A DNA stretch of 64,000 nucleotides from NCBI GenBank assembly GCA_009914755.4, contig CP086569.2, forward strand, positions 384,001 to 448,000, given 5' to 3'. This document shows positions 23,275-24,927 of the stretch, one piece after another (within the stretch, counting starts at the first letter, position 1; each line of letters begins with the position of its first letter). The notes under the pieces were generated by a model. The model saw only the letters and a program-made list of their open reading frames with translations. It did no database searches and was not told where the DNA came from. Source of the stretch: the human T2T-CHM13v2.0 reference genome, Homo sapiens. The position numbers and the translations under genes were made by a program.

Positions 23275-24927
23275 CAGCTTGGGTCTGCTCTGGAGAGGGG
23301 ACGTATGGAGAAGCTGCTCTGGAGAGGGGATATATGGGGAGGCTGCTCTGGAGAGGGGATGTATGGAGAGGGGACGTATGGAGAAGCTGCTCTGGAGAGG
23401 GGATGTATGGGGAGGCTGCTCTGGAGAGGGGACATATGGAGAGGCTGCTCTGGAGAGGGGATATATGGGGAGGCTGCTCTGGAGAGGGGACATATGGAGA
23501 GGCTGCTCTGGAGAGGGCATGTATGGAGAGGCTGCTCTGGAGAGGGACATACGGAGAAGGTGCTCTAGAGAGGGGACGTATGGAGAAGGTGCTGTAGAGA
23601 GGGGATATATGGAGAGGCTGCTCTGGAGAGGGGACATATGGGGAGGCTGCTCTGGAGAGGGGATATATGGGGAGGCTGCTCTGGAGAGGGGATATATGGG
23701 GAGGCTGCTCTGGAGAGGGGATATATGGGGAGGCTGCTCTGGAGAGGGGACATATGGAGAGGCTGCTCTGGAGAGGGGACATATGGAGAGGCTGCTCTGG
23801 AGAGGGGACGTATGGGGAGGCTGCTCTGGAGAGGGGATATATGGGGAGGCTGCTCTGGAGAGGGGACATATGGAGAGGCTGCTCTGGAGAGGGCATGTAT
23901 GGAGAGGCTGCTCTGGAGAGGGGACATATGGAGAGGCTGCTCTGGAGAGGGGATGTATGGAGAGGCTGCTCTGGAGAGGGGATGTATGGAGAGGCTGCTC
24001 TGGAGAGGGCATGTATGGAGAGGCTGCTCTGGAGAGGGGACATATGGAGAGGCTGCTCTGGAGAGGGGATATATGGGGAGGCTGCTCTGGAGAGGGGACA
24101 TATGGAGAGGCTGCTCTGGAGAGGGGACATATGGAGAGGCTGCTCTGGAGAGGGGACGTATGGGGAGGCTGCTCTGGAGAGGGGATATATGGGGAGGCTG
24201 CTCTGGAGAGGGGACATATGGAGAGGCTGCTCTGGAGAGGGCATGTATGGAGAGGCTGCTCTGGAGAGGGGACATATGGAGAGGCTGCTCTGGAGAGGGG
24301 ATGTATGGAGAGGCTGCTCTGGAGAGGGGATGTATGGAGAGGCTGCTCTGGAGAGGGCATGTATGGAGAGGCTGCTCTGGAGAGGGGACATATGGAGAGG
24401 CTGCTCTGGAGAGGGGATATATGGGGAGGCTGCTCTGGAGAGGGGACGTATGGAGAGGCTGCTCTGGAGAGGGCATGTATGGAGAGGCTGCTCTGGAGAG
24501 GGGACATATGGAGAGGCTGCTCTGGAGAGGGGATATATGGGGAGGCTGCTCTGGAGAGGGGACATATGGAGAGGCTGCTCTGGAGAGGGCATGTATGGAG
24601 AGGCTGCTCTGGAGAGGGGACATATGGAGAGGCTGCTCTGGAGAGGGGATGTATGGAGAGGCTGCTCTGGAGAGGGGATGTATGGAGAGGCTGCTCTGGA
24701 GAGGGGACATATGGAGAGGCTGCTCTGGAGAGGGGATGTATGGGGAGGCTGCTCTGGAGAGGGGACATATGGAGAAGGTGCTGTAGAGAGGGGATATATG
24801 GAGAGGCTGCTCTGGAGAGGGGATATATGGGGAGGCTGTTCTGGAGAGGGGACGTATGGAGAGGCTGCTCTGGAGAGGGGATGTATGGAGAGAGGGGATG
24901 TATGGAGAGAGGGGATTTATGGAGAGG
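23275..24927. repeat. Minisatellite, 29/30-bp unit '(g)gagaggctgctctggagaggggacatatg(g)', ~56 copies
   Basis: Regular 29-30-bp period across ~1.65 kb with A/G, C/T and gg/ggg variants. Unit length is not a multiple of 3, which explains the 29-aa 'protein' periodicity in every frame. Confidence 0.95.

What the first reader, a model, noticed from the sequence alone, without database searches (positions are those of the whole stretch)
23275..24927. ~1.65-kb minisatellite with a 29/30-bp unit (~56 copies) that is stop-free in all frames
A highly regular 29-30-bp unit '(g)gagaggctgctctggagaggggacatatg(g)' with ordered variants (gacatatgg / gatatatgg / gatgtatgg / ggcatgtatgg) runs for ~1.65 kb. 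The variants recur in higher-order patterns (for example 23640-24180 vs 24180-24720 look like a ~540-bp higher-order duplication). Arrays of this kind are typically hypervariable VNTRs. The purine-rich strand carries GGGG runs. The 29-bp period explains the 500-660-aa ORFs on both strands with 29-aa periodicity.
Basis: seen in the sequence. Interest (0 to 1): 0.6.

Follow-up and report, generated by a model that had tools for sequence, protein, structure and literature searches.

The report
Ordinary 29-bp non-coding primate minisatellite
This is a real 1.64-kb tandem array of a 29-bp G-rich unit in non-coding, Alu-rich primate DNA: an ordinary minisatellite whose long "ORFs" come from a unit that happens to lack stop codons, and whether its length varies between people could not be tested here.

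Summary
TRF and my own parsing find one array at 23285-24927: 1,643 bp, 56.7 unit-equivalents, period 29, found nowhere else in the window. Three details are wrong.

- There are no 30-bp units.
- Only 2 of 6 frames are fully stop-free.
- The higher-order period is 348 bp (12 units), not about 540 bp. There are three copies at 23705, 24053 and 24401. The first two are 100% identical and the third is 96.6% identical.

Units 12-50 differ at only four positions. The two main ones are the halves of a CpG (ACGT to ACAT, ATGT or ATAT). Private variants and length-aberrant units sit only at the two ends.

The 382-664-aa ORFs are artefacts. 7.5% of composition-matched shuffled units are also stop-free on both strands. 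The period is not a multiple of 3, and no real homologues exist in the protein collections.

The array has no PRDM9 13-mer, Jeffreys core, canonical G4 motif or hairpin propensity.

My best explanation is a non-coding GC-rich minisatellite built by unequal exchange or slippage in multi-unit blocks, with methyl-CpG decay creating the unit variants. Copy-number polymorphism is likely but untested, because no primate data are reachable with these tools. The locus was not identified. Low interest.

The parts
23285..24927 (+). The whole minisatellite array. It is 1,643 bp, or 56.7 equivalents of a 29-bp unit. The consensus is CTGCTCTGGAGAGGGGAC(A/G)TATGGAGAGG. The + strand is 46.7% G and 69% purine, and GC is 58.5%.
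   Evidence: TRF rows 23285-23371, 23364-24892 and 24873-24926. 55 anchored segments. 54 pattern matches against 0 in shuffles. Composition.
23285..23617 (+). Left degenerate zone, units 1-11. It contains private substitutions, a 44-bp compound unit (23343-23386, 29+15), a 28-bp unit (23532-23559), and the TAG-bearing GTGCTCTAG and GTGCTGTAG units (23560-23617).
   Evidence: Unit list. Private-variant profile along the array. Stop positions.
23618..24748 (+). Homogenised core, units 12-50 (39 units, all exactly 29 bp). The units differ only at unit positions 16, 18, 19 and 25.
   Evidence: Per-position counts. Zero private variants in units 12-50.
23705..24052 (+). Higher-order repeat copy 1. 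It has 12 units (348 bp) with unit code BAAGBACADDCA.
   Evidence: 100% identical to 24053-24400. The longest repeated unit block is 12, against a maximum of 7 in 5,000 order shuffles.
24053..24400 (+). Higher-order repeat copy 2 (348 bp), identical to copy 1. The perfect period-348 stretch spans 23701-24447.
   Evidence: a 399-bp exact match at shift 348.
24401..24748 (+). Higher-order repeat copy 3 (348 bp), diverged. It has 12 differences, giving 96.6% identity to copies 1 and 2. Its unit code is BMCABACADDAE.
24749..24927 (+). Right degenerate zone. It contains private substitutions and a second GTGCTGTAG unit (24778-24806). It ends in three 17-bp partial units (24873-24926) that lack the GCTGCTCT segment.
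   Evidence: (period-17 row).
25073..25122 (+). (TG)25 microsatellite 145 bp to the right of the array. It is a neighbour and not part of the array.
   Evidence: TRF and the sequence.
22144..22717 (-). Cluster of antisense Alu sequence, which TRF reads as a 188-bp unit repeated 3 times. It lies 560 bp to the left of the array and marks the DNA as primate. It is not joined to the array.
   Evidence: TRF and the sequence.

Best explanation
This is a non-coding, GC-rich, strand-asymmetric minisatellite in Alu-rich, CpG-island-free primate DNA. It has no product.

Shown:
- The 29-bp unit is itself a diverged 14+15-bp dimer (TGGAGAGG-CTGCTC / TGGAGAGG-GGACATA).
- The unit carries GGAGAGG twice.
- The core of the array is homogenised and the ends are degenerate.
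- A 12-unit block is present three times.

Inferred:
- The array grew and is maintained by out-of-register exchange between sister chromatids or homologues (unequal crossover or gene conversion), by replication slippage, or by both. These events mostly move multi-unit blocks rather than single units.
- Misalignment between the two GGAGAGG copies produced the 15-bp and 17-bp partial units and the 28-bp unit.
- The ancestral unit carried one CpG (ACGT). Germline methyl-CpG deamination produced ACAT and ATGT, and then ATAT.
- The long ORFs are a by-product. The common unit variants contain no stop trinucleotide on either strand, and 29 is not a multiple of 3, so every frame cycles through the same 29 codons.
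- Copy-number polymorphism among individuals is expected, but it was not shown.
For: - Array and period.
- 14+15 internal dimer and 87 GGAGAGG copies.
- Aberrant units of 28, 44 (29+15) and 17 bp.
- Only four variable positions in the core. Positions 18 (C24/T30) and 19 (G23/A31) form the CpG. 8 CpGs are left in 1,643 bp, and CpG o/e is 0.07-0.17.
- Private variants occur only in units 1, 9-11, 51-52 and 54-55.
- A 12-unit block is present three times (100% and 96.6% identity), against a maximum chance block of 7 in 5,000 shuffles.
- The ORFs are not genes:
  - No hit at E<=1e-3 among 5.8 G proteins for the + ORF.
  - Only weak hits for the - ORF among 1.84 G representatives (best 4.6e-15 at 36% identity; identities 20-43% across the 14 hits). 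The hits inspected are themselves periodic translations of other tandem arrays.
  - The Pfam 'Statherin' score has 0 individually significant stretches.
  - 7.5% of shuffled units are stop-free on both strands.
- Non-coding surroundings: no CpG island, only an Alu/SRP Rfam hit, and no credible Pfam domain in 150 unique-region ORFs.
Against: - No second allele or orthologue was available, so neither polymorphism nor the mutational mechanism is directly observed.
- The perfect 348-bp duplication bounds its age only loosely. P(no difference) is 0.38 at 1e5 generations.
- All four combinations at the CpG site exist with both states of position 25. The variant genealogy therefore needs recurrent mutation or intra-array conversion and cannot be resolved from one allele.
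- A transposable-element origin of the founding unit was excluded only by inspection, not by a Dfam/RepeatMasker search.
Confidence: 0.88

Rival explanations
1. The array is a classical hypervariable minisatellite of the MS32/CEB1/MS1 type. It would have very high heterozygosity and a germline mutation rate of 0.5% or more per gamete, driven by a flanking meiotic recombination hotspot.
For: - The unit length is the same as MS32 (29 bp, GC-rich; PMC3510502).
- The array is GC-rich, shows purine strand asymmetry, is long and has a pure core.
- Long, pure alleles are the more mutable ones (bioRxiv 10.64898/2026.03.06.710071).
- About 29% of the window consists of tandem arrays, which fits a VNTR-dense region.
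Against: - The array contains no PRDM9 13-mer, even with 1 mismatch.
- The Jeffreys core and chi sequence are at least 3 mismatches away.
- There is no canonical G4 motif of the CEB1/CEB25 kind.
- Both ends are degenerate, so there is no obvious one-sided polarity.
- There are no telomere repeats, and window GC is only 44%.
- Most large human VNTRs are length-stable between single generations (PMC8327921).
- Hypervariable loci are a small minority of minisatellites (general knowledge).
Confidence: 0.15
2. The array is a protein-coding tandem repeat. It would be an S/P-rich 29-aa repeat read from the - strand, or a G/E/R/W-rich repeat read from the + strand.
For: - The ORFs are 382-664 aa long on both strands.
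- Pfam 'Statherin' scores 37-42 bits, above the 25-bit cut-off, for two - strand ORFs.
Against: - The period of 29 is not a multiple of 3, so each ORF reads all three phases in turn.
- The 28-, 44- and 17-bp units shift the phase.
- ORFs are open on both strands and in several frames at once, as expected from a stop-less unit. 7.5% of shuffled units behave the same way.
- There are no homologues in the 5.8 G collection. The 1.84 G representative library gives only low-identity periodic artefacts.
- The Statherin score is a sum over repeats with 0 significant individual stretches.
- There is no CpG island or other exon signal nearby.
Confidence: 0.01
3. The array is the internal VNTR of a composite or LTR retroelement (SVA-like), or an expansion of a fragment of an old interspersed repeat.
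For: - An antisense Alu cluster lies 560 bp upstream.
- Many human minisatellites arise inside transposable elements (general knowledge).
Against: - There is no CCCTCT hexamer array, SINE-R-like sequence or poly(A) tail, and I saw no target-site duplication around the array (inspection).
- 560 bp of unique sequence separates the Alu cluster from the array.
- The unit is 29 bp and CpG-poor, unlike the 35-50-bp CpG-rich SVA units (general knowledge).
- No other copy of the unit at 7 mismatches or fewer occurs in 64 kb, and there is no exact copy in the other collections.
Confidence: 0.04
4. The array is a functional cis-regulatory or RNA element. It could be a platform of about 18 CATATG E-boxes and GGGGAGG sites, or a repeat domain of a lncRNA. 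Its copy number would then tune a nearby gene.
For: - There are 18 CATATG sites and 87 GGAGAGG sites in 1.6 kb.
- A TAAT/ATTA-rich stretch at 25380-25450 that looks like a conserved element lies 0.5 kb away (untested).
- VNTR length is known to affect expression at many loci (literature listed).
Against: - Nothing here tests binding, transcription or conservation.
- The motif counts follow automatically from the repetition.
- Neither strand shows structure propensity (z -1.3 and +1.4).
- There is no Rfam family match.
Confidence: 0.07

Closest known systems
Generic human non-coding GC-rich minisatellites / VNTRs, as catalogued by Tandem Repeats Finder and studied with long reads (for example the 28-bp PDE4D and 33-bp VPS53 VNTRs in PMC8327921)
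   Same: - The unit is 10-100 bp and the array is kilobase-sized.
- A few interspersed unit variants occur.
- Change happens by duplication or deletion of multi-unit blocks, including segments that 'repeat in groups' of motifs.
- The location is non-coding.
   Different: Nothing qualitative differs. This locus was not found by sequence in any paper text or held supplement that I searched. Its polymorphism is unmeasured.
Minisatellite MS32 (D1S8)
   Same: The unit length is 29 bp, the array is GC-rich, and interspersed two-state variant repeats are suitable for MVR mapping (PMC3510502).
   Different: - The sequence is different. The MS32 repeat primer sequence, which I recalled from memory, has no match at 3 mismatches or fewer in the window.
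- MS32 instability is driven by a flanking hotspot with polarity. Here both ends are degenerate and the hotspot status is unknown.
Higher-order repeats of satellite DNA (alpha-satellite HORs)
   Same: A multi-unit block of 12 units (348 bp) is repeated with higher identity (100% and 96.6%) than the average between units at other shifts (91-94%).
   Different: There are only three copies and the monomer is 29 bp. The context is not centromeric, and the block is best seen as a recent segmental duplication inside a minisatellite.
G-quadruplex-forming minisatellites CEB1 and CEB25
   Same: The G-rich strand has GGGG runs and strand asymmetry.
   Different: - No G3+N1-7 or N1-12 four-run motif occurs.
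- Only 5 sites qualify, and only with a 15-nt central loop.
- Single-strand folding is not better than in shuffles.

Membership tests
Minisatellite (tandem repeat, unit about 10-100 bp) | Head-to-tail tandem copies of a 10-100-bp unit, far beyond chance | tested here: met
   TRF finds period 29, 52.8 copies and score 2470. There are 54 matches against 0 in shuffles.
Minisatellite (tandem repeat, unit about 10-100 bp) | Array of roughly 0.1-20 kb at a single locus, not an interspersed repeat | tested here: met
   The array is 1,643 bp. No unit-like copy occurs elsewhere in the 64 kb.
Minisatellite (tandem repeat, unit about 10-100 bp) | Interspersed variant repeat units (an MVR structure) | tested here: met
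   There are 16 segment types. Five major types account for 42 of the 55 segments. The core has four variable positions.
VNTR in the strict sense / hypervariable minisatellite | Copy number differs between individuals; for 'hypervariable', heterozygosity above about 90% and a measurable germline mutation rate | not testable with these tools
   No primate assemblies are available. The unit and flanks gave 0 hits in metagenome contigs and genome contigs.
Classical GC-rich hypervariable minisatellites (Jeffreys) | GC-rich with purine/pyrimidine strand asymmetry | tested here: met
   GC is 58.5%, and the + strand is 69% purine.
Classical GC-rich hypervariable minisatellites (Jeffreys) | Shared core GGGCAGGANG, or a chi-like GCTGGTGG | tested here: not met
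   The best match has 3 mismatches of 10 for the core and 3 of 8 for chi.
Classical GC-rich hypervariable minisatellites (Jeffreys) | Association with a meiotic recombination hotspot / PRDM9 motif CCNCCNTNNCCNC | tested here: inconclusive
   The motif is absent from the array on both strands, even with 1 mismatch. Flanking hotspot activity cannot be tested here.
MS32 (D1S8) | The 29-bp MS32 repeat sequence | tested here: not met
   The 19-nt MS32 repeat primer core, which I recalled from memory, has 0 matches at 3 mismatches or fewer. The unit length alone is shared.
Protein-coding tandem repeat | Period a multiple of 3, one maintained frame, and homologous proteins | tested here: not met
   The period is 29, with phase-shifting units of 28, 44 and 17 bp. 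There are no homologues. The Pfam hit has 0 significant stretches.
SVA-type composite retrotransposon VNTR | Order of (CCCTCT)n, Alu-like region, VNTR of 35-50-bp CpG-rich units, SINE-R and poly(A), flanked by target-site duplications | tested here: not met
   By inspection of the flanks, there is no hexamer array, SINE-R or poly(A). The unit is 29 bp and CpG-poor. No Dfam search was possible.
Higher-order repeat organisation | A multi-unit block repeated with higher identity than between single units | tested here: met
   Three 348-bp blocks are 100% and 96.6% identical. The 12-unit block compares with a maximum of 7 in 5,000 shuffles.
G-quadruplex minisatellite (CEB1/CEB25 type) | Four G3+ runs with short loops in each unit or unit pair | tested here: not met
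   There are 0 motifs with loops of 12 nt or less, and 5 with loops of 15 nt or less.

The most novel reading that the evidence does not exclude
The array is one of the rare hyper-mutable or lineage-specifically expanded primate VNTRs. Under this reading it undergoes recurrent germline block gains and losses of the 348-bp cassette, and its length acts in cis on a neighbouring developmental gene. The TAAT-rich stretch 0.5 kb away that looks like a conserved element would fit a regulatory neighbourhood. Nothing here excludes this reading, and nothing specifically supports it beyond the long, pure core and the VNTR-dense context.
Probability: 0.08. Interest if true: 0.4.

Novelty: already known. 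Interest (0 to 1): 0.12.

Why it matters
It matters little beyond annotation. The result shows that the 382-664-aa ORFs here should not be called genes. It also corrects the higher-order period to 348 bp. The array is a clean single-allele example of how a minisatellite evolves: CpG decay creates the unit variants, block duplication spreads them, and the ends degenerate. If the locus proved highly length-polymorphic it could serve as a marker or a candidate expression-modifying VNTR, like thousands of other such loci.

Tried and rejected
1. Locus identification and a second allele.
- Full-text search for six 13-16-mers of the unit on both strands found 0 papers.
- The same terms gave 0 hits in the held supplements of PMC10502081, PMC7608644 and bioRxiv 10.64898/2026.03.06.710071.
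- PMC8327921 has no held supplements.
- The degenerate 29-mer and the left and right junction 33-37-mers gave 0 hits in metagenome contigs and genome contigs. All four scans are now used.

2. The coding hypothesis.
- The + ORF had no hit in the 5.8 G protein collection.
- The - ORF found only periodic artefacts in the 1.84 G representatives.
- Pfam gave only the 'Statherin' summation artefact.

3. A gene in the neighbourhood.
- There is no CpG island.
- Rfam finds only an Alu/SRP match.
- The 10 longest unique ORFs gave nothing in Pfam. The 150 unique ORFs gave only four marginal single-member hits, which I judged to be chance.
I ran no further search on it. The chance of finding an exon was low, and the answer would not change the verdict.

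4. Structural and motif ideas. I found no single-strand hairpin propensity, no canonical G4 motif, no Jeffreys core or chi sequence, no PRDM9 13-mer and no telomere repeats.

5. MS32 identity is rejected.

7. The perfect duplication as proof of very recent mutation is rejected, because it only bounds the age loosely.

Full report

Yes. Tandem Repeats Finder reports three contiguous rows:
- 23285-23371, period 29;
- 23364-24892, period 29, 52.8 copies, 91% matches, no indels, score 2470;
- 24873-24926, period 17, 3.2 copies.

I anchored on CTGCTCTGGAGAGGG and obtained 55 segments. Of these, 52 are simple 29-bp units and one is 28 bp (23532). Two are compound segments that each begin with a complete 29-bp unit. 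One is 44 bp (23343, a unit plus a 15-bp partial unit). The other is a terminal 63-bp segment (24865), whose tail TRF reads as 3.2 copies of a 17-bp partial unit.

A degenerate 29-mer matches 54 times at 3 mismatches or fewer. All matches are inside the array, and there are none in 100 dinucleotide-preserving shuffles. Even at 7 mismatches or fewer, nothing unit-like occurs elsewhere in the 64 kb. The array spans 23285-24927, which is 1,643 bp or 56.7 unit-equivalents.

**2.

- There are no 30-bp units.
- 'Stop-free in all frames' holds for 2 of 6 frames. The other four carry five stops in total. These are TAG at 23566, 23595 and 24784 on +, and TAG at 23567 and TAA at 24919 on -. All lie in the degenerate end zones.
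- The proposed ~540-bp higher-order duplication does not exist. Identity of 23640-24180 with the sequence 540 bp downstream is 28.5%, because the shift is out of register. It is 94.6% at 522 bp and 97.8% at 348 bp.
- The real higher-order unit is 12 monomers, or 348 bp. Blocks start at 23705, 24053 and 24401. The first two are 100% identical, and the third differs at 12 positions (96.6%). The exact match at shift 348 runs for 399 bp, so 23701-24447 is perfectly periodic.
- Written as unit codes, the array is HBIEABACJKFLBBBAAGBACADDCABAAGBACADDCABMCABACADDAENFBOP. A repeated block of 12 units never arose in 5,000 shuffles of unit order, where the maximum was 7.

**3. Anatomy**

The + strand is 46.7% G and 69% purine, and GC is 58.5%.

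The unit is an old 14+15-bp dimer, TGGAGAGG-CTGCTC / TGGAGAGG-GGACATA, so GGAGAGG occurs twice per unit and 87 times in all. This explains the length-aberrant units. The 15-bp and 17-bp partial units and the 28-bp unit are what misalignment between the two GGAGAGG copies would give. That step is inference.

Units 12-50 (23618-24748) are all exactly 29 bp and differ only at four unit positions:
- position 16: G47/C7;
- position 18: C24/T30;
- position 19: G23/A31;
- position 25: A38/G16.

Positions 18-19 are a CpG. The states are ACGT (6), ACAT (18), ATGT (17) and ATAT (13). These are exactly the products of methyl-CpG deamination on either strand. Only 8 CpGs remain in the array, and CpG o/e is 0.07-0.17.

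Private substitutions occur only in units 1, 9-11, 51-52 and 54-55. The array thus has a homogenised core between two degenerate ends. The same rare unit, GTGCTGTAGAGAGGGGATATATGGAGAGG, sits in both end zones (23589 and 24778). This suggests that the core expanded inside an older, shorter array, which is also inference.

**4. The ORFs**

ORFs of 664, 530 and 382 aa on + and 610, 576 and 489 aa on - run through the array with 29-aa periodicity. I consider them artefacts, for these reasons:
- The common unit variants contain no stop trinucleotide on either strand. 7.5% of composition-matched shuffled units share that property, so it is unremarkable.
- Because 29 is not a multiple of 3, each frame reads all three phases in turn.
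- The + ORF has no hit at E<=1e-3 in the 5.8-billion-protein collection.
- The - ORF finds 14 weak hits among 1.84 billion representatives. The best is 4.6e-15 at 36% identity, and identities range from 20 to 43% across the 14 hits. The five I inspected are periodic repeat translations; I counted a 29-aa period in three of them. They show that gene callers make the same mistake elsewhere. They are not homologues.
- The Pfam 'Statherin' score of 37-42 bits has no individually significant stretch. It is a sum over P/Y/Q-rich repeats.

**5. Surroundings**

The window is primate DNA. Alus are everywhere, including 22144-22717, and the only Rfam hit is an Alu matching SRP RNA at 57585-57732.

GC is 44%. 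60% of the window is repeated within itself, and about 29% lies in tandem arrays. There is no CpG island and no telomere repeat. The 150 unique-region ORFs contain no credible Pfam domain.

The array is flanked by unique sequence on both sides. An Alu cluster lies 560 bp to the left and a (TG)25 lies 145 bp to the right. By inspection I found no SVA-like organisation, poly(A) tail or target-site duplication.

**6. Mechanism**

My best explanation is a non-coding minisatellite that grew by out-of-register recombination, replication slippage, or both. These events move multi-unit cassettes. Methyl-CpG decay supplies the unit variants, and the array ends escape homogenisation.

The structure is shown; the process is inferred. 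The inference agrees with long-read studies of human VNTRs. [quoted passage not shown]

Long, pure alleles are the more mutable ones (bioRxiv 10.64898/2026.03.06.710071). On that basis I put the chance of copy-number polymorphism at about 0.75.

The evidence does not support calling the array hypervariable:
- The perfect 348-bp duplication only bounds its age to roughly 3x10^5 generations or less.
- The array lacks the PRDM9 13-mer, the Jeffreys core and chi.
- It has no canonical G4 motif.
- It has no single-strand folding propensity (z -1.3 and +1.4).
- Most large human VNTRs are stable between single generations.

**7. Comparison with known loci**

The array is an ordinary member of the class of GC-rich, strand-asymmetric human-type minisatellites. 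It shares the 29-bp unit length with MS32/D1S8 (PMC3510502) but not the sequence. The MS32 repeat primer, which I recalled from memory, has no match at 3 mismatches or fewer. Its 12-unit cassette resembles a higher-order repeat, but with only three copies.

**8. What could not be done**

I could not identify the chromosome or gene, and I could not obtain any second allele or orthologue.
- The unit is absent from the searchable paper texts and from the held supplements I searched.
- The unit and both junctions are absent from the metagenome and prokaryote contig collections.
I did not pursue it with the costly searches.

The polymorphism claim therefore remains untested. The decisive test is a length and unit-map survey across HPRC/HGSVC haplotypes and the ape T2T assemblies.

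**9. Verdict**

The feature is real and of a known kind, and it is of low interest. The main value of this review is in three points. The ORFs should not be annotated as genes. The higher-order period is 348 bp. The variant pattern is explained by CpG decay plus block duplication.

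Noticed in passing
window 677-1945: A tandem array of about 6-8 copies of a 153-171-bp unit. Each unit consists of an antisense Alu fragment, a short unique piece and a (TAT)n run. It is an Alu-derived minisatellite or small satellite (TRF).
   Followed up: no
window 38604-40668 and 42948-44011: Extremely AT-rich minisatellite blocks with GC of 5-15%. They include a very regular 31-bp unit, TATAATATATAGTATATTATATCGTGTATTA, repeated 21.7 times at 96% (39927-40605). From memory, the style resembles the AT-rich minisatellites at rare fragile sites such as FRA16B and FRA10B. 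This was not tested.
   Followed up: no
window 17852-19723, 31700-32634, 35077-36914, 45582-46129, 47554-48483, 49028-50046, 50494-51720: Seven long (0.5-1.9 kb) degenerate tetranucleotide arrays of the GATA, GGAT or TGGA type. They show super-periods of 19, 23 and 143 bp. Together with the other arrays, about 29% of the window is tandem repeat.
   Followed up: partly
window 53934-55302: A 1.3-kb purine-only (GAG)n-like array with about 77-bp and 100-bp super-periods. It is a long homopurine tract and could form triplex DNA. This was not examined.
   Followed up: no
window 25300-25460: Unique sequence 0.4-0.5 kb to the right of the array is rich in TAAT/ATTA motifs (for example cattagctaattgatttcttattag). 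It looks like a homeodomain-site-rich conserved non-coding element. Conservation could not be tested.
   Followed up: no
window 21260-22080 and 25125-26080: By eye, the unique flanks of the array keep many CpGs for DNA that is not a CpG island, for example tcgttcgat and ccgtaacgtcgttag. The array itself has lost nearly all of its CpGs. This contrast is unexplained.
   Followed up: no
window 22144-22717: TRF reads three tandem copies of a 188-bp antisense Alu segment at 88% identity. This suggests a local tandem duplication within an Alu cluster rather than three independent insertions.
   Followed up: no
window 60042-60797 and 10971-11202: Two further small tandem arrays: a 282-bp unit repeated 2.7 times at 87%, and a 46-bp unit repeated 5 times at 88%.
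   Followed up: no
proteins P0001, P0002, P0004: Predicted proteins in public collections contain 29-aa periodic tails, for example GEPQHLSHVQENPNICPMFRRTPTSVPCS repeated at the C-terminus of an 896-aa fibronectin-type-III-like protein. These tails look like translated 29-bp minisatellites, and probably reflect gene-model read-through into tandem repeats.
   Followed up: no
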